A DNA stretch of 64,000 nucleotides from an archaeon. GTDB taxonomy: Archaea > Iainarchaeota > Iainarchaeia > Iainarchaeales > 1-14-0-10-31-34. The stretch lies in contig JBDRFE010000002.1 of NCBI GenBank assembly GCA_043819075.1, forward strand, positions 66,253 through 130,252. Reading direction: 5' to 3'. Below, one piece after another: positions 31,324 to 62,172 of the stretch (its first letter is position 1; each line of letters starts with the position of its first letter). The notes under the pieces are model-generated. The model was not told the DNA's origin and did not search any database. It was given only the letters and a program-made list of their open reading frames with translations. The translations under genes and the position numbers were made by a program.

Positions 31324-31514
31324 TATTTCACCTTCACTTCTTTTACTTCAATTATTTCAATTAAATTTCTTTTAAGCTTGTTTTTTGAGCCGAACAGGCT
31401 GAAAACCTGTTCTATTGCAGTGTTTTCATTCAATGAATTAACTGTTTTAGAAAAGTTTTTTTCCATTTTCTTGCTTTTTATTTTTCCCTGTACTTCAAAT
31501 AATTTTTTTTCCAT
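31323..31514 (-). CDS. 50S ribosomal protein LX (L18Ae/L20A family)
   Basis: [13 protein letters not shown]...[32 protein letters not shown] resembles the LX family; conserved LX-pfdA-ftsY linkage. Confidence 0.55.
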
Positions 31515-31519
31515 GTTTA
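31493..31519. repeat. 27-bp direct repeat, copy 1 (cttcaaataattttttttccatgttta); identical copy at 31673-31699
   Basis: Exact 27/27 identity, 180 bp apart, flanking element A; includes the rplLX ATG and first 7 codons. Confidence 0.85.
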
Positions 31520-31672
31520 TTCCCCCTCAACCGTCACGCTCGGTTGGTGTGCGTGCACTATCTTCGCTTTTGCTCGATAGAGCTTGCACGGCTTTACACC
31601 GTGCTGTGCTTTTACAGAAGGACTGAGCGCAAGCGAATGTCGTTCTCTGGTGCCAGCTGACAGTGGCAGCTG
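31520..31672 (-). repeat. GC-rich hairpin element (copy A) inserted between a perfect 27-bp direct repeat that duplicates the rplLX start region
   Basis: 153 nt at ~58% GC in a ~30% GC genome; contains GCACGG-TGTAAAG-CCGTGC and CCAACCG-AGCGTGA-CGGTTGG hairpins shared with copies B, C and D. Confidence 0.6.
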
Positions 31673-31699
31673 CTTCAAATAATTTTTTTTCCATGTTTA
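31673..31699. repeat. 27-bp direct repeat, copy 2
   Basis: See copy 1. Confidence 0.85.
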
Positions 31700-33979: not shown

Positions 33980-34471
33980 TTATTCCTTGCGTTTTTGGGC
34001 TGTTTTTTCAAGCAGTTTTTTTTCAACTGTTTCTGGCACGAACTCTTTTACCCTGCCTTTCAGTGAAACAATTTCTTTTATAAGAGTGGAGTTAATGTAA
34101 AAGTATTTTGGCTCTGTCATTAAAAAAACTGTTTCAATGTTTTCATTCAAGCCTTTATTGACTGTTGACTGCTGGAATTCGTATTCAAAATCGCTTATTG
34201 CCCTTAACCCTCTGATAACAAACCTGTAATTTTTTTGTTTCATGTACTCTGCAAGCAATCCATGCAATACTTCAATTTTAATGTTCTTTTTTTTGCTGAA
34301 CAGCTCTTCAAGCATTTGCTTTCTTTCTTCTAAAGAAAACCAGTTTTTTTTTCTCTTGTTTTCTGCAACCAATACAATTACTTCATCAAACAGTTTTTCT
34401 GCCCTAGAAATTATGTCCATGTGCCCGAATGTAACTGGGTCAAAGCTTCCTGCATAAATCCCTGTTTTCAT
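33980..34471 (-). CDS. coaD: Phosphopantetheine adenylyltransferase, bacterial CoaD type
   Basis: GIYAGSFDPVTFGHMDIISRA closely matches bacterial CoaD ([20 protein letters not shown]). Confidence 0.85.
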   Translation of the reverse strand: MKTGIYAGSFDPVTFGHMDIISRAEKLFDEVIVLVAENKRKKNWFSLEERKQMLEELFSKKKNIKIEVLHGLLAEYMKQKNYRFVIRGLRAISDFEYEFQQSTVNKGLNENIETVFLMTEPKYFYINSTLIKEIVSLKGRVKEFVPETVEKKLLEKTAQKRKE

Positions 34472-35355
34472 TTAATTTCGCCTTTAATTTTATTGCTTAA
34501 ATCATTAATTTTTTCCTGCAATTCCTTTAAAGTTCCATTGTTTTCAACCAAAAAATCGGCTTTCTTTTTTTTCCTTCCTGCAGGCAGCTGGTTTTTTAAT
34601 CTCTTTAAAACCTCTTCTTTTTGCATTCCAAGCTTTTCTTTTCTTTCAATCATTTTATCTTTTTTTGAATAAATCACTAAGATCTTGTCGCATAAATCCT
34701 GCATTCCTGATTCAAACAATAAAGGAATTTCTATTGCAACAAGTTTTTCTCCTCTGGCTTCTTCTTCAAGTTTTTTTCTCACTAAAGGATGAATTAACTC
34801 ATTTAATTCAGCTAATTTTTTCCTGTTATTAAAAACAATTTTTGCGATTTTCTGGAATTCAATTCCATGTTTTGAAACAGCTTCTATTCCAATTATTTCT
34901 TTTAACTCTTCTTTTACTTTCAGCATTTCTTTTTTGGCTATTGTATCTGCATTCAATGCTTTGAAGCCGTTTGATTCAAATTCTTTTAATACAGTGCTTT
35001 TTCCTGTTCCAATGCTTCCAGTAATGCCTAACACAATGCATTCCTTTTTTTTCTCCGGAAAAACTTTTTTTATTTTCCCGCAGTTTTTGCATTTAACCAG
35101 CAAAACCTTGTTTTTTATTCTCACTTCTTTGTCTTTGCTTTCAAGCAATAAAGAAAAACATTTTTTGCAGTAAAGTTTTTTCAGTTCTTTTGGAATTTTT
35201 ACTTTATTCCTCATCCCGATTTTTTTCATTAACTTTAAGTAATCCAAACTTCTTTCAGGATGTTTTTCCCATTCAATTAAAGCAAGGTCCATTAGCCTGT
35301 ACATTCTCTGCAATGCAATGTCTTCAATGAACTTCCTGTTATTTTTTTGCTTCAT
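34468..35355 (-). CDS. Fusion protein: N-terminal RNase P subunit Rpp21/Rpr2 zinc-ribbon domain plus C-terminal dephospho-CoA kinase (bacterial CoaE type)
   Basis: Residues ~1-105: KVKIPKELKKLYCKKCFSLLL...VKCKNCGKI aligns with archaeal Rpp21 ([23 protein letters not shown]...CLECGH); residues ~110-295: VLGITGSIGTGKSTV P-loop and CoaE-like lid; a single uninterrupted 295-aa frame. Confidence 0.7.
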   Translation of the reverse strand: MKQKNNRKFIEDIALQRMYRLMDLALIEWEKHPERSLDYLKLMKKIGMRNKVKIPKELKKLYCKKCFSLLLESKDKEVRIKNKVLLVKCKNCGKIKKVFPEKKKECIVLGITGSIGTGKSTVLKEFESNGFKALNADTIAKKEMLKVKEELKEIIGIEAVSKHGIEFQKIAKIVFNNRKKLAELNELIHPLVRKKLEEEARGEKLVAIEIPLLFESGMQDLCDKILVIYSKKDKMIERKEKLGMQKEEVLKRLKNQLPAGRKKKKADFLVENNGTLKELQEKINDLSNKIKGEIK

Positions 35356-35444
35356 AAAAGAATTAGTGGTTTAATTACTATAAATTAATAACCTATGCAA
35401 AGCATAGGTTGACATTTTTCGGCACTCACGCTCGAAAGCGTGAA

Positions 35445-35515
35445 TGCGCCCACCGGGAATCGAACCCGGACATTGAGCTTGGAAGGCTCACGTCATACCA
35501 CTAGACTATGGACGC
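35445..35515 (-). tRNA. tRNA-Gly (anticodon TCC)
   Basis: GCGTCCATAGTCTAGTGGTATGACGTGAGCCTTCCAAGCTCAATGTCCGGGTTCGATTCCCGGTGGGCGCA: 7-bp acceptor stem, TTCGATT T-loop, anticodon loop CTTCCAA. Confidence 0.9.
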
Positions 35516-35650
35516 AAACGTTTCGCCGTTTGAGCACGAAGCACTATCTTCGCTTTTGGCTCGATAGAGCTTGCACGGCTTTATGCCGTGCTTCGTACCG
35601 CACAGCCGAAACTGTGCCGAGCTTGCTTCGCCAATTGTGCAGACTAATTA
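35516..35650 (-). repeat. GC-rich hairpin element (copy B), immediately 5' of tRNA-Gly(TCC)
   Basis: ~50 nt nearly identical to copy A (AGCACGGCATAAAGCCGTGCAAGCTCTATCGAGCCAAAAGCGAAGATAGTGC); ~58% GC. Confidence 0.6.
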
Positions 35651-35779
35651 CTGTAATAAAAAGTTATTAAACTTTATTTTTTTTGTTTAACACAGAAATA
35701 CTGTTTTAGTCAGCACAAATTAATAACCAATTACAAAGTAATTGGTTGATGTTTTTCGTTTCTCGCGGGCGAAACCGCG

Positions 35780-35925
35780 ATGCGAAGCACATACGGCTTT
35801 ATGCCGCAGCCGTCACGTTCGGCTGGTGTACGCGTACCACGTAAAGTGGTGCTAGCACGGCTTTATGCCGTGCGCCGTCACACTCGCACGGAAGCGAGTC
35901 GGTGCTCGCGCTCGAAGCGCGACGA
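35780..35925 (-). repeat. GC-rich hairpin element (copy C), immediately 3' of tRNA-Gly(GCC)
   Basis: ~95% identical over ~150 nt to the element 3' of tRNA-Arg (copy D), apart from a 56-nt indel. Confidence 0.65.
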
Positions 35926-36145
35926 TGCGACTGCCGGGAATCGAACCCGAGTCCGAAGCTTACTGCACAACTTTTTTAAAAGTTGTATCAAAATGTACGG
36001 CATAAAGCCGTACTGTACTAAAACAATAAGTTTTTGCAAAGCAAAAACCGTTTTTGTTAAACCTTTTTTTGAAAAAGGTTTTTTTGATCAAACTTTTGGA
36101 AAAGTTTGTTGGCAAGCTCCAATTCTACCACTGAACCACAGTCGC
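35926..36145 (-). tRNA. tRNA-Gly (anticodon GCC) interrupted by a ~149-nt intron in the anticodon loop (canonical 37/38 region; intron about 35961-36109)
   Basis: 5' exon GCGACTGTGGTTCAGTGGTAGAATTGGAGCTTGCCA, 3' exon AGCTTCGGACTCGGGTTCGATTCCCGGCAGTCGCA: perfect 7-bp acceptor pairing, GTTC/GAAT D-stem, GGAGC/GCTTC anticodon stem; the intron is AT-rich with palindromic hairpins including GTACGGCATAAAGCCGTAC. Confidence 0.8.
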
Positions 36146-36336
36146 GTAAATAATGATTGAATAGAAATAGTTTTTAAAACTGGGGTTTTTCATCAAATTT
36201 AACCCATTTGTTTTTGCTTGGCTCTAAAGAGATTTTAGAGCATGAAGGGCACTGCCATACTTCAACTTCTTCTTCCCCTCTATGCTCTGTTCTCTGAAGC
36301 AACATTATTGAGCCGCATCTAAGGCATTTCATGCAA

Positions 36337-36594
36337 TCAACTGTTTTTCTGGCATGTCTGCCCTATCTGGCATTTTTCGTGGCATTCAATCCAGTCGCAG
36401 TCTAATTCTCCTGCCTGAATTTGCTGGTCGCAGTTGTTTGCGCATTGCTTTGATATTGCTTTTTGCTTTTGCTGTTCGTCTAAAACTGCTTTTCCTGTTG
36501 TCTGTGCATTGTTTACGCTCCAAAAAACAGCTATGATTAAAACAAAAAACACTACTCCTGCAAAAATCACTGCTCTATACATATTATTCACCAT
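36337..36594 (-). CDS. Small membrane-anchored Cys-rich protein (hypothetical)
   Basis: N-terminal TM helix, 6 Cys in the C-terminal 40 aa (CANNCDQQ...CDWIECHEKCQIGQTC). Confidence 0.35.
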   Translation of the reverse strand: MVNNMYRAVIFAGVVFFVLIIAVFWSVNNAQTTGKAVLDEQQKQKAISKQCANNCDQQIQAGELDCDWIECHEKCQIGQTCQKNS

Positions 36595-36733
36595 TAAACC
36601 CTCCTAAAAGAAAGTAAATAAATAATATTATTCAATGTATTTAATGCTTTTGTTCTGCCTTTTTGAGAAAAAGGCAAGTTGCCAAAAACCATTTTTGCCT
36701 GCGGCAAAAATCAGTTTTACAAAAATTATTTAA

Positions 36734-36805
36734 TTGGGCTCGGGCGGAATCGAACCGCCAGTCTCGACCGTGTAAGGGTCGCATCATACCACTAGACCAC
36801 GAGCC
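36734..36805 (-). tRNA. tRNA-Val (anticodon TAC)
   Basis: GGGCTCGTGGTCTAGTGGTATGATGCGACCCTTACACGGTCGAGACTGGCGGTTCGATTCCGCCCGAGCCCA: perfect acceptor stem, anticodon loop CTTACAC. Confidence 0.85.
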
Positions 36806-36927
36806 CCGCCTTTTCCAAAAGGCAGGTTGCAACTTAATTCCAAAAAGGAATTAAGTGCACACTAAAACCAAAAGTTTTAGTGGTGCCAAAACGCACGGCG
36901 TAAACCCGTGCTGGCACTGTTTTTTAT

Positions 36928-38292
36928 TTACATTACGAGAGTTTTTATTTCTGGTGTTTCCTCTAGTTTTCCTTTTTTTACTCCGACAACATATTTCACT
37001 GAATGGTTTTTTGCTTCATCTAATAGCCTTTTGGTTATTATTCCGTCTAATACAATGGATTCAACTTGTTTTTGTGTTTTTAGCTCTGGAATTAATTCCC
37101 TTATTTTTGTTCTTTTTATTTCACGGCCTTTTTCATCCATTAAAACTGCTTCCATTTTTCCTTTAACTGAATCCATTATTGGATTAAATTTTGTTTTTTC
37201 TTCTTCTGTTGCTGGAAGTGAAAGAATCGGCCTAATTGGATTTTCGTCTGAAAACCTGTTCCTTGGACTGAATGGCCTGATGCTTCTTGAATCAAATGGC
37301 CTTGGCCTTTGTGAATCAAATGTTCTTGGTGAATCAAATTCTCTTGGCCTTTCAAATCCTCTGTTTAATGGTCTTGGAGTTGGGCTAAAGTTATTGCTTC
37401 TCATTTCAGTTCTTGGCCTGAAAGAAGAAGAAAATTTTGGCGGAAAGCTTCTTGGCTTCAAAAAAGTCTGTTTTCTTGCAATGTCTTTTGCCGGAATCCT
37501 TTTCCTTAAAGCCATTGTGATTTCTTTTTTTTGGAGTTCTTCAACTTCTTTTCCGTCCGGAGCTCTTGCAAGAAAATCTATTTTAGCTGAATCCATTAAC
37601 TGTCTTTGGATTAGTTCTCCGCCTCTGTCGCCGTCAGAAAACATTGTGACTGTTTTTCTTTTGCATAATTCTGGAATTGATTCAGGTATTTTTGAGCCAT
37701 TCATTCCTACAACATTTTTTACTCCGTTCCTTAAAAGGTTTAATACGTCTGCTCTTCCTTCAACTAAAATTATTTCTTCTTCTTTTTCTATGTCTGGTCC
37801 TGCGGGAAGCCTTTCAGGTCCCCATGCCTTGATTTCTGATATTCTGGCTGATTCTCTTACTTCTTCTGACATCTCGCCTGAACCAGTGCTTTCCTGCAAA
37901 AATTTTCCTAATAATTCTTTTGCTCTTTTTTTTATTTCTTCTCTTTTGTTTGTCCTAGTGTCCTCTATTTGTTCTACTGCAAACTTTGATTCATATGGGC
38001 CTACTTTTTCAATTGATTCAACTGCTGCTGCAAGAATTGATGTCTGCACCATGTCAAGAGATGAAGGCACAATTAATGAGCCGACGGTTTTTCCGTTTTC
38101 GGGGGACGGAAAAATATCTATTCTGCCGATTTTCCCGTTTTTTTGGAGTTCCCTTAAGTCAAGGTCTTCTCCGATTAAGCCTTCGCTTTGGCCGAATACT
38201 GCACCGATTATGTCGTGTTTGTCTACCAGGCCCTGTATTTCAAATTTTGCTTTGATGTTGTATTTTACTGTGTTAATGTAAGTTTTTCCCAT
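36928..38292 (-). CDS. dnaG: Archaeal DnaG-type primase (TOPRIM) with an internal RPxFDS repeat insert
   Basis: TOPRIM motifs (ILVEGRADVLNLLRNG, TVTMFSDGDRGGELI); low-complexity repeats FERPREFDSPRTFDSQRPRPFDSRSIRPFSPRNRF. Confidence 0.8.
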   Translation of the reverse strand: MGKTYINTVKYNIKAKFEIQGLVDKHDIIGAVFGQSEGLIGEDLDLRELQKNGKIGRIDIFPSPENGKTVGSLIVPSSLDMVQTSILAAAVESIEKVGPYESKFAVEQIEDTRTNKREEIKKRAKELLGKFLQESTGSGEMSEEVRESARISEIKAWGPERLPAGPDIEKEEEIILVEGRADVLNLLRNGVKNVVGMNGSKIPESIPELCKRKTVTMFSDGDRGGELIQRQLMDSAKIDFLARAPDGKEVEELQKKEITMALRKRIPAKDIARKQTFLKPRSFPPKFSSSFRPRTEMRSNNFSPTPRPLNRGFERPREFDSPRTFDSQRPRPFDSRSIRPFSPRNRFSDENPIRPILSLPATEEEKTKFNPIMDSVKGKMEAVLMDEKGREIKRTKIRELIPELKTQKQVESIVLDGIITKRLLDEAKNHSVKYVVGVKKGKLEETPEIKTLVM

Positions 38293-38384
38293 TAAATAAT
38301 CACCTTTTTATAATTTTGTTTTTTTTAATTTCAGTATGGCCTTGTGCCATACTTTTTGTTACACCTTTTGGAAAAGGTGTAGAA

Positions 38385-57639: not shown

Positions 57640-57890
57640 TTCGCGCTTTCGAGCGCGAGCACCGACTCGCTTCCGTGCGAGTGTGACGGCGCACGGCTTT
57701 CAGCCGAGCATGCTTCGCTTTCGCGGTTCCGTCCGCGAGCAACGGAGCACGGCATAAAGCCGTGCTAGCACCACTTTACGTGGTGCGCGTACACCAGCCG
57801 AACGTGACGGCTGCGGCATAAAGCCGTATGTGCTTCGCTTTCGTGATTTCGCTTGCGGGTGTAGAGCGATATATCAAGTTATTTCGTTTC
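57640..57890 (+). repeat. GC-rich hairpin element (copy D) immediately 3' of tRNA-Arg
   Basis: ~250 nt at ~58% GC; homologous to copy C (3' of tRNA-Gly-GCC) with a 56-nt indel flanked by a GCACGGC direct repeat; hairpins GCGC-TTTCGA-GCGC, GCACGGC-ATAAA-GCCGTGC, CAGCCG-AACGTGA-CGGCTG. Confidence 0.65.
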
Positions 57891-57917: not shown

Positions 57918-59297
57918 TTATTTCCTTTTAAGGTATTTTGAAAAAAACTCTTTTGCCTCGCCTTTATAGATTTTCTTTAATTTTTTTCCAGAGTAAACTG
58001 AAAATTTTTCTTTGAGCTGTCTTACAAGGAATTTTTTTGGGTTAACCTTGATTTGTTTTTCAATGAATTCTTTTACTGCAGTTTCTGCTTTAATATGCTT
58101 TCTTTTCACTTTTGCATGCAAATGCCCTTTGATTTCTTTTACTTTGTGTCTGCCGTGTTTTTCCCTGAATTTGCTTGCGTGCTCTTTCATTTCACTCGGC
58201 GGGCCTTTAACCATTTTTTCTTTTCCCAGCTGTTTTTCTTTCACTTCAACTAATAAAAGCATTTTTTCTTTCTGGTCTGTCCAGAGCTTTTCATTTAAGA
58301 CAGTGAAATCGTTTTCCTCTAATTCTTTTCTCAGCTTCCTTAAAAACTGCCTTAGCTGGCCGAATGCAACGTCTTCATGGATTTTTTTATAGCCTGTTTC
58401 AATTACTAAAATGTTTTTTCCTGAAATTTTTTTATTGAATTCTTTTTGGGAAAAAATTTTAACTGGTTTTGGAAAAAAGAAATGCATTGAAGGTTTTCTT
58501 AAAAACTCTTTTGCTTTTTCCCTGAATCTTTCATAAACTTCAGGCGAAACTGCTGCTGCAACATTCCTTTTTTCGTCTGTCGGGTCAATGAACACTAAAG
58601 GAAAAGAAAATTTTTTCGCAAGCTCTGCTTCTTTTTTTTTGTTCAGTTTTTCTGTCAGGGAAATGATTTTTTGTGGTTTCCAAGACCAAGCTTTTTTTAG
58701 AGTGTTTTCAAATGACTTGTATTTGATTACAAGCAATTCAGTTAAATAGCCTGAAAACCCCTGTGTTTTTAGTTCTGCTCCATAGCATTCAGTTCCTTTA
58801 AGGAATTTTTTCAGCAGCCGAATTTCGTTTCTGTGTGTTTCTTTTATTTTTTCCTGCACAAAACTTGTATGGAATGGAGTCCTGTCAACTGAAGACAGCA
58901 GTTCTTTTGTACTGCTTATTTTGTATGCAGGAATTAATTCAATTTTGTGGCCTTCTATTTCTGTTTTCACATAAGGGTGCTCGCCAAAATCTATTTCCCA
59001 GTTTTTGCCTGAAATCTTTTTTGCAATCCTTAATCCTTCTTTAATAAATTCTTTTCTTTCAAGTTTTTTGTCAAATAAAATGAATATGTCAATGTCTTTG
59101 TCGCCTTTTAGGTGAGTGTTCCTTGAAAGCGAGCCTGCAAGTATTGCTTCCAGATGCTTTCCCTTGCATTTATTTATTTTTTCCAGTATTTTTTCCGATA
59201 TTTCTTTTTCTTTTCTTATTTCTTCTTCTGATGGGATTACCTTTTCAAGGACCTTTTTTTTTATTTCAGCCATTTTTTGTTTTTTCACAGAAACCAT
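57918..59297 (-). CDS. cca: CCA-adding tRNA nucleotidyltransferase (archaeal class I)
   Basis: GSLSRNTHLKGDKDIDIFILF nucleotidyltransferase motif (GS...DxD), ~450 aa. Confidence 0.8.
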   Translation of the reverse strand: MVSVKKQKMAEIKKKVLEKVIPSEEEIRKEKEISEKILEKINKCKGKHLEAILAGSLSRNTHLKGDKDIDIFILFDKKLERKEFIKEGLRIAKKISGKNWEIDFGEHPYVKTEIEGHKIELIPAYKISSTKELLSSVDRTPFHTSFVQEKIKETHRNEIRLLKKFLKGTECYGAELKTQGFSGYLTELLVIKYKSFENTLKKAWSWKPQKIISLTEKLNKKKEAELAKKFSFPLVFIDPTDEKRNVAAAVSPEVYERFREKAKEFLRKPSMHFFFPKPVKIFSQKEFNKKISGKNILVIETGYKKIHEDVAFGQLRQFLRKLRKELEENDFTVLNEKLWTDQKEKMLLLVEVKEKQLGKEKMVKGPPSEMKEHASKFREKHGRHKVKEIKGHLHAKVKRKHIKAETAVKEFIEKQIKVNPKKFLVRQLKEKFSVYSGKKLKKIYKGEAKEFFSKYLKRK

Positions 59298-59351: not shown

Positions 59352-60962
59352 TTGGCTAAACTGGAAGAACTTAATTTCAATAAAATAATCAAAACAGAGC
59401 AGGACACTGCAATTGTTCCCATGAAAAAAGAGCTTAACCTGATTGACTCTTATGACTTGATTGAAATCTTTGAGGATTACCCTTCTTATTATTATTTTAT
59501 TAAAAAGCCTCTTCTTTCTGACAGGGAAAAACTTTTTGGTTCGGTGCTTGAAAACATTATTTTAAAAAAAGCTTCAATTCCAGACCTTTCCTCCAAGCTT
59601 GGTTTGTCAAAGGATTTTTTGAATGAACTGAATGACAGCGTAATTCATGAAATTGAGTCACAAAATTTGTTGCATGTTCTTCCAGATGATGAATCGTTTA
59701 ATGTAATAAAAGAATCTTTTTTGTCGCTTGCAAAAAAGCATTTGGATTTCATTGTCCATCCAAGTGAATTAACTGACCTTGTTTTGGGCAGGACAATTGG
59801 TTATGGTTTTTTGTCTAACATGGTGCATGATGACTGGCTTGAAGAAATAATGGTTAATGGCTATGACAAACCTGTTTTTATTTTTCACAGAAAATACGGC
59901 ATGTGTGAAACAAATGTTTTGATTAAAAAAGACGGTTTTATTCAGAGACTGCTTTACAGGATTGCTTCTACGGTAAGCAGGGAATTAACTGATTCAAGGC
60001 CTTTGCTTGATGCAAGGCTTCCTGATGGTTCCAGGGCTAATGCCACTTCGCCTTATGCGACTCCTTTTGGGCCCACACTTACAATCAGGAAGTTTTCTAA
60101 GACTCCTTTAAGCATTATTGATTTAATTAATACTGGGACAATGAATGCAGAGATTGCGGCTTTTTTGTGGGTTATGGTTGAAGGCTTTGGCATTGAGCCA
60201 ATGAACATTATTATTACCGGCGGAAGCGGTACAGGAAAAACTTCTACTTTAAATGCATTATCTGTTTTTGTAAGAAAAGAGGACAGGATTATTACAATTG
60301 AAGACACTTTAGAGCTTCATTTAGGCGAAAGGCAGAACTGGATTCAGATGGAGGCAAGGCCAGAGATTTCTGGAACACAGGAACTGTCAATGGATGACTT
60401 GCTTAAAAATGCTTTGAGAATGCGCCCTGACAGGATTATTTTAGGAGAGGTAAGAGGCCCTGAAGCACAAACCCTGTTTACTGCAATGGATATAGGTCAC
60501 AGCGGATGCATGGGGACAGTGCATTCAAATAACGGAAGGGAATTGATTACCAGATTAAAAAGTGCTCCGATGAATGTTCCTGACATAATGCTGCCTTTGC
60601 TTGACTTGATTGTAGTGCAATACAGGATGCATGCCCCTGGAAAAGGAGTTATAAGAAGAATAACCCAGATATGCGAGGTAAGTAGGATGGATGAACAGAC
60701 TTTGCTTGGAGAACTGTTTGTCTGGAGAAAAGAAGAAGACACAATAAAACAGACTTCAACTCCAGCTCATATTCTTGAAAAGATTGCTGACAGGGCAGCC
60801 AAGACAAAAAAAGATGTGATGAAAGAAATTAAAATCAGGCAGAGAATCCTTGAATGGATGACTTTGAATGGAATTCACTTGAATGCAGATGTACAGAATA
60901 TTATCCAAAAATATTATTATAATTCAACTGAACTGCTTGAACAGGTTTCAGAAGAACTTTAA
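59352..60962 (+). CDS. Type II/IV secretion-family ATPase (archaeal FlaI/PilB-like)
   Basis: Walker A IIITGGSGTGKTS, Asp box, Walker B (RIILGEVRG), His box (GHSGCMGTVH). Confidence 0.8.
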   Translation: MAKLEELNFNKIIKTEQDTAIVPMKKELNLIDSYDLIEIFEDYPSYYYFIKKPLLSDREKLFGSVLENIILKKASIPDLSSKLGLSKDFLNELNDSVIHEIESQNLLHVLPDDESFNVIKESFLSLAKKHLDFIVHPSELTDLVLGRTIGYGFLSNMVHDDWLEEIMVNGYDKPVFIFHRKYGMCETNVLIKKDGFIQRLLYRIASTVSRELTDSRPLLDARLPDGSRANATSPYATPFGPTLTIRKFSKTPLSIIDLINTGTMNAEIAAFLWVMVEGFGIEPMNIIITGGSGTGKTSTLNALSVFVRKEDRIITIEDTLELHLGERQNWIQMEARPEISGTQELSMDDLLKNALRMRPDRIILGEVRGPEAQTLFTAMDIGHSGCMGTVHSNNGRELITRLKSAPMNVPDIMLPLLDLIVVQYRMHAPGKGVIRRITQICEVSRMDEQTLLGELFVWRKEEDTIKQTSTPAHILEKIADRAAKTKKDVMKEIKIRQRILEWMTLNGIHLNADVQNIIQKYYYNSTELLEQVSEEL

Positions 60963-61522
60963 TCATTCAGGCTGAAAGAAAAATTTTTTTTGTAGTCAGG
61001 CCCTTCTGGAAGCAATACTGATTCCATTAAATCAAATTCTTTTGCCTCAATTTTTTCCTCAAAATGAATTTTTTTTAATTTTTCAGCCAGTTCCCTGAAT
61101 TGCATTGAATTCATTTTTTTGTTTCTTGCAATAGTTATATGGGAATTAAACCTGTTGTCTGTAATTTCAAGTTTTGTGCAGATTTTTTCGTGCAGTGCGC
61201 TAATTTCTTTTTCCCCTTCTTTTATTTCAAGGAAAAGCACTCTTGAATTAAAGCTGTTTATTCCTGAAATTACTGCATGAAATTTTTCCTGCTTTATTTC
61301 ATTTATTTTTTCCTTTAATTCATTTATTTTTTCTTCAGGAAAATATCCTAAAAAAAGCAGTGTGATGTGAATGTTTTGTTCTTTTACTGCATTAACTCCT
61401 TGAGGGAATTTTTTGCAGTAGGTTTCAAATATTTTTTTCCTTGTTTTTTCGGGCAGGTTTATTGCAAAAAAAACTTTTTTCAAAGTTTTATCAAAACGCT
61501 TCGCAGAAATTCTTTTGTTCAT
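60959..61522 (-). CDS. RNA 2',3'-cyclic phosphodiesterase / 2'-5' RNA ligase (2H family, LigT/ThpR)
   Basis: Two H-x-T-x motifs (HITLLFLG and HITIAR). Confidence 0.75.
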   Translation of the reverse strand: MNKRISAKRFDKTLKKVFFAINLPEKTRKKIFETYCKKFPQGVNAVKEQNIHITLLFLGYFPEEKINELKEKINEIKQEKFHAVISGINSFNSRVLFLEIKEGEKEISALHEKICTKLEITDNRFNSHITIARNKKMNSMQFRELAEKLKKIHFEEKIEAKEFDLMESVLLPEGPDYKKNFSFSLND

Positions 61523-61572: not shown

Positions 61573-62172
61573 TCACTTTAATTTTTTCCTTGCGGTTTTT
61601 TCGAATTCCTTGAACTGAAAGTAATTTTTTTCAAGTTTTTTGTTTGCTTTTTCAAGCGCTTTTTCAAGGAATTTTTTTTCTGTAATTATTTCTCCTTTTA
61701 TTTTCACCGGAAAGGCAATTGATTGTGTGCCGATTAATTCTGTAATGAATTTTCCTTCAACTGCAACCATTATTCCTGCTCTCCTTATTCCGGCTGTTTT
61801 TGCGGCTTCAAGGACTTTTTTTGCGTTTTCAAGGCTGTCGGTTCCTAAATGCAGGATAAAAGGGTCTAATTTGAACCATAATTCTTCTTCTGAATTTTGT
61901 TTGTTTATTTCTTTCATTAATTCTTTGAAAGAAATTTTTCTGTGCCATTTTGCGTGAAAAGCTGCTTCTTTTTTGTTTCCTTCTTTGTCAATGTCAAGCA
62001 AAACTATTCTTCCTGCGCAGCTGCTTGAAGTGAAAAAGTTTTTTGTTTTGGAAATAAACCTGCAGAAAGGAATTATCTGGCTGTCTGCTTTCCCTTGTTT
62101 TACTGCATCAAAAAAAGTTTTTTTGTGCCTTTCTTTTACCATTTCAAATCTTGTTTCTTCTTTGGTTTTCAT
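61573..62172 (-). CDS. taw3: tRNA wybutosine-pathway methyltransferase Taw3/TYW3-like
   Basis: SSCAGRI motif (the TYW3 S-x-C-S-G-R-I signature). Confidence 0.65.
   Translation of the reverse strand: MKTKEETRFEMVKERHKKTFFDAVKQGKADSQIIPFCRFISKTKNFFTSSSCAGRIVLLDIDKEGNKKEAAFHAKWHRKISFKELMKEINKQNSEEELWFKLDPFILHLGTDSLENAKKVLEAAKTAGIRRAGIMVAVEGKFITELIGTQSIAFPVKIKGEIITEKKFLEKALEKANKKLEKNYFQFKEFEKTARKKLK

What the first reader, a model, noticed from the sequence alone, without database searches (positions are those of the whole stretch)
35926..36145. tRNA-Gly(GCC) with an exceptionally long (~149 nt) anticodon-loop intron rich in perfect palindromes
The two exon halves reconstruct a canonical tRNA-Gly(GCC), with perfect 7-bp acceptor pairing between pieces 180 nt apart. 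They are separated by a ~149-nt AT-rich insert at the canonical 37/38 position. The exact junction is ambiguous by one A. The intron carries several perfect palindromes (CAACTTTT-TTAA-AAGTTG, GTACGGC-ATAAA-GCCGTAC, CAAACTTTT-GG-AAAAGTTTG, AAACCTTTTT/AAAAAGGTTT). The same palindrome style fills the flanks of tRNA-Val at 36806-36900: GCCTTTT-CC-AAAAGGC, ACTTAATTCC-AAAAA-GGAATTAAGT, CACTAAAAC-CAAAA-GTTTTAGTG, GCACGG-CGTAAAC-CCGTGC. Most archaeal tRNA introns are 12-60 nt. An intron this long, carrying a hairpin module shared with the GC-rich element family, suggests the module spreads between tRNA-associated sites.
Basis: seen in the sequence. Interest (0 to 1): 0.6.

Follow-up and report, generated by a model that had tools for sequence, protein, structure and literature searches.

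The report
Oversized hairpin-packed intron in tRNA-Gly
A glycine tRNA gene of a tiny DPANN archaeon is split by a real but unusually long (149-base) intron built from stacked hairpins, and relatives show the intron growing and shrinking (53-203 bases) as hairpin modules, some shared with a repeat family around other tRNA genes, come and go.

Summary
On the minus strand, 36145-36110 and 35960-35926 splice into a canonical 71-nt tRNA-Gly(GCC). They are separated by a 149-nt, 28% GC intron at position 37/38 that holds five near-perfect hairpins.

The gene is not a pseudogene. Twelve orthologous loci from related Iainarchaeota/Diapherotrites-like DPANN archaea all carry an intron at the same site, 53-203 nt long. 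The exon halves covary across the intron: 100% of cells paired, with three acceptor pairs showing double changes. More distant relatives have an intronless gene.

The splice signal is a slightly relaxed bulge-helix-bulge. The 4-bp central helix and the 3-nt 3' bulge are conserved. The 5' bulge is 2-3 nt.

The introns are homologous but modular. Short forms are 82-85 nt; long forms add hairpins. One module, GUACGGC-UUUAU-GCCGUAC, belongs to a GC-rich hairpin repeat family. That family also sits in the leaders and trailers of all four tRNA genes in the window, in other orthologues' introns, and once inside a protein gene start with a 27-nt duplication.

This is a new variant of a known kind. Its length exceeds the 11-129 nt range given in a 2014 review. 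Splicing itself, and any function of the hairpins, remain untested.

The parts
36110..36145 (-). 5' exon of tRNA-Gly(GCC): acceptor 5' strand, D arm, anticodon stem 5' strand and loop through A37
   Evidence: Sequence. ARAGORN on the spliced sequence. Identical or covarying in 12 orthologues.
35961..36109 (-). 149-nt intron at canonical position 37/38 (28% GC)
   Evidence: Intron MFE -46.0 kcal/mol, z = -6.6.
35926..35960 (-). 3' exon: A38, anticodon stem 3' strand, 4-nt variable loop, T arm, acceptor 3' strand, discriminator A73 (no encoded CCA)
36112..36115 (-). 5' strand of the central BHB helix H (tRNA positions 32-35, UUGC)
   Evidence: Pairs with intron positions -6..-3.
35963..35966 (-). 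3' strand of helix H (GCAG), followed by the 3-nt 3' bulge U-A|A38
   Evidence: Fully paired in 9 of 12 orthologues, one mismatch in the other 3. Changes are one-sided and mostly keep pairing.
36089..36108 (-). M1: 5' terminal hairpin CAAACUUUU-CC-AAAAGUUUG. Its 5' arm can instead pair with the 3' arm of M5 to form the outer helix h'.
36059..36081 (-). M2: hairpin AAACCUUUUU-CAA-AAAAAGGUUU
   Evidence: Homologous to the 5' hairpin of the short-form introns.
36029..36049 (-). M3: central hairpin GGUUUUUGC-UUU-GCAAAAACU, the core shared by short and long intron forms
   Evidence: 9 pairs, 100% of cells paired in 5 distinct sequences, 2 pairs with double changes, one G.U on the sense strand.
35995..36013 (-). 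M4: GC-rich hairpin GUACGGC-UUUAU-GCCGUAC, a member of the dispersed 7-bp-stem / AUAAA-loop hairpin family
   Evidence: Also present in the L007 and L011 introns.
35967..35986 (-). M5: 3' terminal hairpin ACAACUUUU-AA-AAAAGUUGU, abutting helix H
36170..36180 (-). TATA-box-like motif (GTTTTAAAAAC on the sense strand) about 30 nt upstream of the 5' exon
   Evidence: A/T-rich motif (A/T)TAAAA at the same distance in the orthologues. Promoter role is inferred.
35907..35921 (-). Conserved 3'-trailer hairpin CGCGC-UUCGA-GCGCG, followed by AGCACCGA
   Evidence: The same motif, with covarying stems, follows tRNA-Gly(TCC), tRNA-Arg and the L001/L008 orthologues.
35756..35898 (-). GC-rich multi-hairpin repeat element inserted in the tRNA-Gly(GCC) trailer
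   Evidence: 97 nt at 98% identity plus 50 nt at 100% identity to the trailer of tRNA-Arg at 57640-57880. The 50-nt block also covers the trailer hairpin at 35907-35921. Absent from the L001 and L008 trailers.
35725..35747 (-). AT-rich hairpin followed by UUAUUAAUUU: probable end of the transcription unit
   Evidence: The same hairpin-plus-tail ends the trailers of tRNA-Gly(TCC) and of orthologues.

Best explanation
This is a functional tRNA-Gly(GCC) gene of a DPANN archaeon (Iainarchaeota/Diapherotrites-like). It is interrupted at canonical position 37/38 by an archaeal protein-spliced (bulge-helix-bulge) intron.

Proposed pathway:
1. The gene is transcribed from its own promoter about 30 nt upstream.
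2. In the precursor, anticodon-loop bases 32-35 (UUGC) pair with GCAG at the 3' end of the intron to make the 4-bp central helix.
3. The 3' splice site sits in the 3-nt bulge U-A|A38, next to the anticodon stem.
4. The 5' splice site (A37|A) sits in a 2-3-nt bulge. That bulge lies between the central helix and an outer helix, made either by the two intron ends pairing with each other or by the terminal hairpin M1.
5. The splicing endonuclease cuts both sites, and an RtcB-type ligase joins the exons and probably circularises the intron.

The unusual length has no demonstrated function. Only the base of the intron is constrained. The interior has grown by accretion of hairpin modules:
- AT-rich perfect palindromes, which are the signature expected of replication template-switch mutations.
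- At least one GC-rich hairpin from a dispersed repeat family that colonises the discarded parts of pre-tRNAs (leaders, trailers, introns).

Shown: exon integrity and covariation, conserved intron position, conserved central helix, modular homology, and length variation among relatives. Inferred: splicing enzymes, circularisation, promoter, and the neutral or selfish origin of the modules.
For: The spliced sequence is a canonical tRNA-Gly(GCC).

Twelve orthologous loci all carry an intron at 37/38, with lengths 53, 78, 78, 82, 84, 85, 85, 149, 168, 172, 194 and 203 nt. They were found through synteny with DnaG and Rpr2-CoaE, and through exon searches of genome and metagenome collections. ARAGORN itself calls Gly(gcc) with an intron for L016 and L017.

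Across 8 distinct spliced sequences, 100% of cloverleaf cells pair. Three acceptor-stem pairs, which join the two exons, show changes on both sides. Slid controls give 21-47% paired.

Relatives with DnaG at 57-59% identity (L018, L019) have an intronless tRNA-Gly(GCC). The intron is therefore a clade feature, not an assembly artefact.

Helix H is fully paired in 9 of 12 orthologues, and G at -6 is invariant. The orthologues share a TATA-like motif upstream of the 5' exon only.

The introns align as homologous modules. The central hairpin M3 shows two compensatory pair changes.

The M4 core 15-mer recurs next to every tRNA gene in the window. Other family members occupy other positions of the orthologous intron in L012, L005 and L001.

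Literature: DPANN endonucleases carrying the L3 loop are associated with disrupted tRNA genes (PMC5829648). Template switching creates perfect hairpins and inverts loops (PMC8794818).
Against: - No RNA data: splicing is inferred.
- In the window's copy the 5' bulge is 2 nt if A(i1) pairs with U(-7), or 3 nt with one unpaired U opposite. Either way it is not a strict 3-4-3 motif.
- In a mini-substrate fold, a competing 9-bp extended stem (-14.6 kcal/mol) beats the BHB conformation (-9.4).
- Three orthologues have one mismatch in helix H.
- The intron sense strand carries two T5 runs and two terminator-like hairpin+T sites. These should cost full-length transcript in an archaeon.
- No endonuclease or RtcB gene was found among the 10 window ORFs tested. 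The rest of the genome is not available.
- A second, intronless tRNA-Gly(GCC) elsewhere in this genome cannot be excluded.
Confidence: 0.8

Rival explanations
1. The intron is kept long because it hosts a functional RNA. The excised 149-nt piece, probably circular and rod-like, or its conserved central hairpin, would act as a guide, a decoy or a protein-binding RNA. The precedent is the box C/D RNA nested in euryarchaeal tRNA-Trp introns.
For: The central hairpin M3 is conserved in short and long forms, with two compensatory changes and a sense-strand G.U. Long-form introns are far more structured than shuffles, z = -3.8 to -6.6. All four informative wobble pairs in module stems are G.U on the transcribed strand. 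The precedent is described in PMC4090602.
Against: No C box (<=1 mismatch) and no D box in any of the 12 introns. No Rfam family matches. Intron content differs greatly between close relatives (82 vs 194 nt; 53-203 nt overall), and M3 itself is replaced by a different hairpin in L005/L007 and is absent in L001/L017. The covariation support is modest: 17 of 500 shuffles reach it. Template switching could also produce it.
Confidence: 0.12
2. The copy is a pseudogene: a tRNA-Gly(GCC) gene killed by insertion of a miniature palindromic element into its anticodon loop, with another gene supplying the tRNA.
For: The insert contains a member of a dispersed repeat family. The BHB is not strict in this copy. 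The whole genome is not available to check for a second copy.
Against: The insertion site is exactly 37/38 in 12 lineages. The exons stay intact and covary across the insert. The intron-side strand of helix H is conserved. No other tRNA-Gly(GCC) was found in the window or in the DNA read at the syntenic loci.
Confidence: 0.04
3. The hairpins act at the DNA or transcription level, as bidirectional terminators, operators for a dimeric DNA-binding protein, or promoter-proximal elements of the tRNA cluster. The intron would merely be one of the places where they are needed or tolerated.
For: YTTTT-loop-AAAAR palindromes and the GC doublet occur in intergenic DNA as well as in the intron. The GC doublet lies 25-49 nt upstream of tRNA-Val in either orientation in different genomes. 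Terminator-like sites are enriched, 11 against 2.3 expected.
Against: A terminator or operator inside a tRNA gene would be harmful rather than useful. Hairpin sequences and numbers differ freely among orthologous introns. UUCG-type loops and sense-strand G.U pairs point to RNA rather than DNA.
Confidence: 0.08
4. The gene is on its way to being, or already works as, a split tRNA. The 5' half would terminate at the intron's T runs. The 3' half would be transcribed separately. The halves would pair through the complementary intron ends and be trans-spliced as in Nanoarchaeum.
For: T5-T7 runs and terminator-like hairpins lie on the sense strand of 10 of 12 introns. The intron ends are complementary.
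Against: The halves are contiguous in every genome. The conserved TATA-like motif is found only upstream of the 5' exon. The only TATA-like run near the 3' exon lies too close to it to give a complete half.
Confidence: 0.03

Closest known systems
Canonical archaeal tRNA introns (bulge-helix-bulge, position 37/38)
   Same: Same position. Same 4-bp helix between anticodon-loop bases 32-35 and the intron 3' end. Same 3-nt 3' bulge cut after its second base. The exons give a normal tRNA.
   Different: Length is 149 nt here and up to 203 nt in orthologues, against a reported range of 11-129 nt with medians of 12-25 nt (PMC4090602). The 5' bulge is relaxed. The interior is a chain of perfect hairpins.
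tRNA-Trp(CCA) intron of Euryarchaeota carrying a box C/D guide RNA
   Same: An unusually long intron at 37/38 whose extra length is structured RNA.
   Different: No C or D boxes in any of 12 orthologues. The isoacceptor is different, and the content is not conserved between close relatives.
[quoted passage not shown] 2010, as summarised in PMC4033280)
   Same: Similar sequences shared among the removable parts of different tRNA genes, implying movement between tRNA genes.
   Different: There, whole short introns recur at many positions in many tRNAs. Here, sub-intron hairpin modules recur in leaders, trailers and one canonical intron.
tRNA-Thr locus heterogeneity in Caldiarchaeum subterraneum (PMC3293823)
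   Same: Co-occurring related genomes differ in the disruption state of one tRNA gene, and mobile DNA is implicated.
   Different: That case involves a 1.8-kb recombinase-encoding element and gene fragmentation. Here the variable units are 20-150-nt non-coding hairpin modules and the gene stays in one piece.
Bacterial REP/BIME/REPIN elements and archaeal MITEs (from general knowledge)
   Same: Short GC-rich palindromic units, often in doublets, dispersed in non-coding DNA, in either orientation, with near-identical copies within a genome.
   Different: Stems vary while loop and stem length stay constant. The elements are strongly tied to tRNA transcription units. No associated transposase has been identified. 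One copy has a 27-nt flanking duplication.
Template-switch mutations that create and maintain RNA hairpins (PMC8794818)
   Same: Perfect stems with short loops appearing in one step, apparent multi-base compensatory changes, and loop inversions.
   Different: That work concerns rRNA and microRNA genes. No ancestral reconstruction was done here, so the mechanism is only proposed.

Membership tests
Archaeal BHB (endonuclease-spliced) tRNA intron | Removal of the insert restores a complete cloverleaf tRNA | tested here: met
   ARAGORN calls the spliced 71-mer tRNA-Gly(GCC). All 21 pairs form in 8 distinct orthologous sequences.
Archaeal BHB (endonuclease-spliced) tRNA intron | Central helix of 4 bp between the two splice sites | tested here: met
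   U32.G, U33-A, G34-C, C35-G with intron -3..-6. Fully paired in 9 of 12 orthologues.
Archaeal BHB (endonuclease-spliced) tRNA intron | 3-nt bulge at the 3' splice site, flanked by the anticodon stem | tested here: met
   U-A|A38 between GCAG and GCUUC. NN|A in all 12 orthologues.
Archaeal BHB (endonuclease-spliced) tRNA intron | 3-nt bulge at the 5' splice site, flanked by an outer helix h' of at least 2 bp | tested here: inconclusive
   C36-A37|A1. A1 can pair with U(-7), giving a 2-nt bulge and a 4+5-bp h'. Alternatively it stays free with U(-7) unpaired opposite, or the helix is supplied by hairpin M1. A strict h' of 7-8 bp is seen in L009, L013 and L016.
Archaeal BHB (endonuclease-spliced) tRNA intron | Cleavage by the splicing endonuclease and ligation by RtcB | not testable with these tools
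   No transcript data. No EndA or RtcB among 10 window ORFs scanned. Only 64 kb of the genome is available.
Box C/D RNA-bearing tRNA intron | C box (RUGAUGA) and D box (CUGA) within the intron | tested here: not met
   No C box at <=1 mismatch and no CUGA in any of 12 introns.
Group I intron in a tRNA anticodon loop | Catalytic core recognisable by covariance model; typically over 200 nt | tested here: not met
   No Rfam intron family at the gathering threshold or at E<=10 in 35000-37500. The organism is archaeal.
Split tRNA genes (Nanoarchaeum type) | Halves encoded at separate loci, each with its own promoter | tested here: not met
   The halves are 149 nt apart here and contiguous in all orthologues. 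The conserved TATA-like motif is only upstream of the 5' exon.
Dispersed palindromic repeat (REP/MITE-like), for hairpin M4 and the GC-rich modules | Multiple copies of recognisably the same unit at unrelated sites in one genome | tested here: met
   The 15-mer core has 14 matches at <=3 mismatches against 0.8 expected. 7-bp stem / AUAAA-type loop hairpins sit at 35573, 35855, 35995 and 57746, plus partner hairpins. The trailers of tRNA-Arg and tRNA-Gly(GCC) share 97 nt at 98% identity.
Dispersed palindromic repeat (REP/MITE-like), for hairpin M4 and the GC-rich modules | Presence/absence differences at orthologous sites, and target duplication | tested here: met
   An element plus a 27-nt duplication lies at the start of the LX-like gene and is absent in L001. 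Modules are present or absent in the intron, trailer and leader between L009 and L007.
Dispersed palindromic repeat (REP/MITE-like), for hairpin M4 and the GC-rich modules | A cognate transposase (e.g. RAYT/IS200-type) in the genome | not tested
   Only 18 window ORFs were scanned against Pfam, and none is a transposase. The genome is incomplete here.

The most novel reading that the evidence does not exclude
The hairpin modules would be a family of selfish, or co-opted, structured elements specialised to live in the parts of pre-tRNAs that are thrown away (leader, trailer, intron). They would move among tRNA genes of Iainarchaeota. The tRNA-Gly(GCC) intron would be their shared landing pad, released after splicing as a stable, rod-like circular RNA of 150-200 nt. 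That would be a viroid-sized RNA made by the tRNA splicing machinery, with its own biology.
Probability: 0.15. Interest if true: 0.75.

Novelty: new variant of a known kind. Interest (0 to 1): 0.5.

Why it matters
Standard tools miss this gene: default ARAGORN and Rfam do not find it, and ARAGORN with introns mislabels it as tRNA-Cys. DPANN genomes would therefore look as if they lack tRNA-Gly(GCC). This is the kind of hidden disrupted tRNA gene suspected in PMC5829648.

The clade offers a natural series of one intron from 53 to 203 nt, which shows how a protein-spliced intron grows. Only the splice-site base is constrained, while hairpins are added, swapped and lost between genomes that are about 91% identical.

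It also links intron growth to a repeat family that targets tRNA transcription units. That bears on the long-standing question of how archaeal tRNA introns are gained and spread. It would also make a good substrate set for testing how tolerant DPANN splicing endonucleases are.

Tried and rejected
- Default ARAGORN and Rfam, at gathering and at E<=10, did not detect the gene.
- ARAGORN with introns gave a tRNA-Cys(ACA) model with a G.U-rich anticodon stem and a 21-nt extra arm. I rejected it in favour of the Gly(GCC) model. The Gly(GCC) model is the one ARAGORN gives for orthologues L016 and L017.
- The exact-sequence look-up of the source contig failed twice, and the source genome is not among the GTDB representatives searched. 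The rest of the genome, with its endonuclease and any second Gly(GCC) gene, could not be examined.
- Rfam searches of the GC-rich elements found nothing.
- C/D box search: negative.
- Scans of viral contigs for the GC hairpin and the 3' exon gave no hits. The 20-nt AT palindrome gave two hits in viral contigs, which I did not inspect and treat as uninformative for such a low-complexity palindrome.
- A Pfam scan of 10 size-selected ORFs for EndA/RtcB found none.
- I first read the contig breaks at the exon/intron junction as strain-level intron polymorphism. That reading is weakened, because the two continuations (L009, L007) are only 91% identical downstream. They show co-occurring related lineages with different introns, not alleles of one strain.
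- The orientation of M4 (loop UUUAU) relative to the family is ambiguous. It could be a reversed AUAAA hairpin or a forward UUUAC-type partner. I therefore do not rely on it. The unambiguous orientation flip is the doublet upstream of tRNA-Val in L006/L015 versus L001/L008.

Full report
**What is there**

The window is 32-37% GC and archaeal. The finding is flanked by DnaG primase, Hjc resolvase and an Rpr2-CoaE fusion. The DnaG protein is 100% identical to one from an NCBI 'MAG: archaeon'. Its closest named relatives, at about 70% identity, are Candidatus Diapherotrites/Iainarchaeum, which are DPANN archaea.

The feature lies on the minus strand. 36145-36110 reads GCGACUGUGGUUCAGUGGUAGAAUUGGAGCUUGCCA, and 35960-35926 reads AGCUUCGGACUCGGGUUCGAUUCCCGGCAGUCGCA. 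Joined, they give a 71-nt sequence that ARAGORN calls tRNA-Gly(GCC). It has G1:C72, C2:G71, G3:C70 and A73.

The 149 nt between them (36109-35961) are 28% GC. Default ARAGORN and the Rfam tRNA model miss the gene.

They are well above chance:
- The window holds 51 perfect hairpins against 4-16 in shuffles, and 11 of them lie in 35390-36882.
- The precursor fold has z = -7.2.

**It is a maintained gene, not a wreck**

I recovered orthologous loci in two ways. One was synteny (DnaG ... tRNA-Val ... tRNA-Gly(GCC) ... tRNA-Gly(TCC) ... Rpr2-CoaE). The other was exact searches for the 5' exon in genome and metagenome collections.

Twelve loci (eleven distinct introns; L001 and L010 are identical) carry an intron at the same 37/38 position. 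The lengths are 53, 78, 78, 82, 84, 85, 85, 149, 168, 172, 194 and 203 nt. A thirteenth locus, L012, runs off its contig 79 nt into the intron. ARAGORN itself calls Gly(gcc) with an intron for L016 and L017.

The eight distinct spliced sequences fill the cloverleaf completely: 100% of cells paired, against 21-47% when partners are slid. Three acceptor-stem pairs, whose two sides lie in different exons, change on both sides.

Two more distant relatives (DnaG 57-59% identity; L018, L019) have an intronless tRNA-Gly(GCC). So the intron is a trait of one clade, present in independent assemblies.

**Splice signals**

By the standard geometry, anticodon-loop bases 32-35 pair with intron positions -6..-3. 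Here UUGC pairs with GCAG (U.G, U-A, G-C, C-G), leaving the 3' bulge U-A|A38 next to the 5-bp anticodon stem.

The helix is fully paired in 9 of 12 orthologues and has one mismatch in the other three. G(-6) is invariant. The variation on the intron side (C/U at -5, A/G at -4 and -3) mostly preserves pairing.

The 5' site is less orthodox. C36-A37|A1 is followed by ACAA.CUUUU, which pairs with AAAAGUUGU at the intron 3' end. If A1 pairs with U(-7), the bulge is 2 nt. If it does not, one U is unpaired opposite it. Alternatively the helix is supplied by the local hairpin M1.

In a mini-substrate fold, a competing 9-bp extended stem is 5 kcal/mol more stable than the BHB form. I therefore call it a relaxed BHB. 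Some orthologues (L009, L013, L016) have a strict 3-nt bulge and a 7-8-bp outer helix. Literature links DPANN endonucleases carrying the L3 insert to disrupted tRNA genes and notes that DPANN tRNA sets are often incomplete with standard tools (PMC5829648). Relaxed BHB-like substrates are accepted by some archaeal endonucleases (PMC12397907).

**Anatomy and growth of the intron**

The introns are homologous and modular. Short forms (82-85 nt: L008, L009, L013, L016) consist of three parts:
- a 5' hairpin;
- a central hairpin, GGUUUUYRC-UUU-GYRAAAACU;
- a 3' arm that pairs back to the 5' end.

Long forms (window, L011, L005, L007) keep this core and add a new 5' terminal hairpin (M1), a GC-rich hairpin (M4) and a 3' terminal hairpin (M5). 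L007 carries further insertions. L005 replaces M4 with a different GC-rich piece. L014, at 203 nt, is largely different inside.

The central hairpin shows two compensatory pair changes and one sense-strand G.U in five distinct sequences. That support is modest, since 17 of 500 shuffles reach it.

None of the 12 introns has a C or D box, and no Rfam family matches. Ten of 12 carry T5-T7 runs on the sense strand. Two of the window's hairpins score as terminator-like. This is an unexplained cost.

**Link to the repeat family**

M4 (GUACGGC-UUUAU-GCCGUAC) shares its 15-nt core with hairpins in the leader of tRNA-Gly(TCC) (35575), the trailer of tRNA-Gly(GCC) (35793, 35857) and the trailer of tRNA-Arg (57749, 57813). 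Close variants lie upstream of tRNA-Val (36895) and at 31588.

Across all loci these hairpins have a fixed design: a 7-bp GC-rich stem whose sequence varies with perfect complementarity, and a loop AUAAA/GUAAA or its complement. They often come as a doublet separated by 2 nt. The doublet lies upstream of tRNA-Val in one orientation in L001 and L008 and in the other in L006/L015.

The trailers of tRNA-Arg and tRNA-Gly(GCC), 22 kb apart on opposite strands, share 97 nt at 98% identity and 50 nt at 100% identity. Orthologous trailers in L001 and L008 lack this element.

One copy sits inside the start of a small LX-like gene, flanked by a 27-nt duplication of the gene start. L001 has the uninterrupted site.

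In L012 the orthologous intron begins with a GC-rich piece that matches the tRNA-Val leader of L001. L001's intron has its own AUAAA hairpin.

Between L009 and L007 (91% identical in flanking genes), modules differ in intron, trailer and leader. Two independent assemblies also break exactly at the 5' exon/intron junction.

The AT-rich YTTTT-loop-AAAAR palindromes are a second class. There are 8 in the window against 0-1 in shuffles, and 6 of them lie in 35967-38381. In other loci they occur in intergenic DNA too.

**Mechanism and rivals**

Best explanation (0.8): an ordinary protein-spliced intron whose interior is free to vary and has accumulated hairpins.

Perfect stems with 2-5-nt loops, apparent multi-base compensation and loop inversions are what replication template switching produces (PMC8794818). 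The GC-rich modules behave like a dispersed repeat. Both points are inference.

Rivals:
- A functional intron RNA (0.12). The conserved central hairpin and sense-strand wobbles are for it. Rapid turnover and the lack of known motifs are against it.
- DNA-level roles for the hairpins (0.08).
- A pseudogene (0.04). This is contradicted by exon covariation.
- An incipient split gene (0.03). T runs are for it. Contiguity and a single promoter motif are against it.

**Comparison and novelty**

This is a member of the archaeal BHB-intron class at the canonical site. It differs in three ways:
- Length: 149 nt here and up to 203 nt in relatives, against 11-129 nt in PMC4090602.
- Its hairpin-chain architecture.
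- Its traffic with a tRNA-associated repeat family.

The nearest precedents for movement are intron transposition in Thermoproteales (PMC4033280) and the Caldiarchaeum tRNA-Thr locus (PMC3293823). A full-text search found no paper in its top-ranked results that treats tRNA introns in Diapherotrites/Iainarchaeota.

I rate it a new variant of a known kind, with moderate interest.

**Limits**

- There is no expression data.
- Only 64 kb of the genome is available.
- The endonuclease was not found among the ORFs tested.
- The mobilising mechanism of the modules is unknown.

Noticed in passing
window 35756-35898 (-), 57658-57880 (+), 35517-35645 (-), 36876-36923 (-), 31526-31672 (-): A GC-rich multi-hairpin repeat family in a 34% GC genome, found beside all four tRNA genes of the window. 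The core is a doublet of 7-bp-stem hairpins with loops AUAAA and UUUAC, separated by UA. Stems covary while loops stay fixed. The copies after tRNA-Arg and tRNA-Gly(GCC) are 98-100% identical over 97 + 50 nt. No Rfam match.
   Followed up: partly
window 31514-31694 (-): A ~153-nt GC-rich element is inserted at the start of a small LX-like ribosomal protein gene. It is flanked by a 27-nt direct duplication, TAAACATGGAAAAAAAATTATTTGAAG. The downstream copy keeps the ORF intact, preceded by GAGGGGG from the element end. Relative L001 has the uninterrupted site.
   Followed up: partly
window 35907-35921 (-), 35426-35441 (-), 57642-57657 (+): A conserved 3'-trailer motif follows tRNA-Gly(GCC), tRNA-Gly(TCC) and tRNA-Arg 2-4 nt after the discriminator. 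It is a 5-bp stem that covaries, a loop UU(U)CGA, then AGNNCCGA. The same motif is seen after the L001 and L008 orthologues. It could be a processing or termination signal.
   Followed up: no
window 35516-35531 (-): The hairpin AAACG-GCGAAA-CGUUU abuts the 5' end of tRNA-Gly(TCC). It is conserved at the same place in L001, L007, L008 and L009.
   Followed up: no
window 34468-35355 (-): A single ORF fuses an RNase P protein subunit domain (Rpr2/Rpp21) to dephospho-CoA kinase (CoaE). The same fusion is called in relatives L001, L016 and L017.
   Followed up: no
window 57918-59297 (-), 60959-61522 (-), 61573-62172 (-): tRNA-maturation genes cluster next to tRNA-Arg: CCA-adding enzyme, a LigT/2'-5' RNA ligase-like phosphoesterase, and TYW3. 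The CCA-adding enzyme fits tRNA genes that do not encode CCA.
   Followed up: no
L006 end / L007 start; L015 end / L009 start: Two independent assemblies break exactly at the last base of the 5' exon, with overlaps of 141 and 123 nt. The contigs that continue carry a 194-nt intron and an 82-nt intron. This points to co-occurring related lineages that share the exon and upstream DNA but differ from the first intron base.
   Followed up: partly
L017 7090-7217: In one relative the neighbouring tRNA-Gly(TCC) also has an intron at 37/38 (55 nt, by ARAGORN). It is intronless in the window and in the other loci.
   Followed up: no
window 35780-36160 (+): A 126-aa ATG ORF runs antisense through the GC-rich element and the tRNA gene. 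It is almost certainly spurious but could be annotated as a hypothetical protein.
   Followed up: no
window 35725-35747 and 35390-35410: AT-rich 9-10-bp hairpins followed by UUAUUAAUUU end the trailers of tRNA-Gly(GCC) and tRNA-Gly(TCC). They score as terminator-like on both strands. The same hairpin-plus-tail is conserved in L001, L007 and L009.
   Followed up: no
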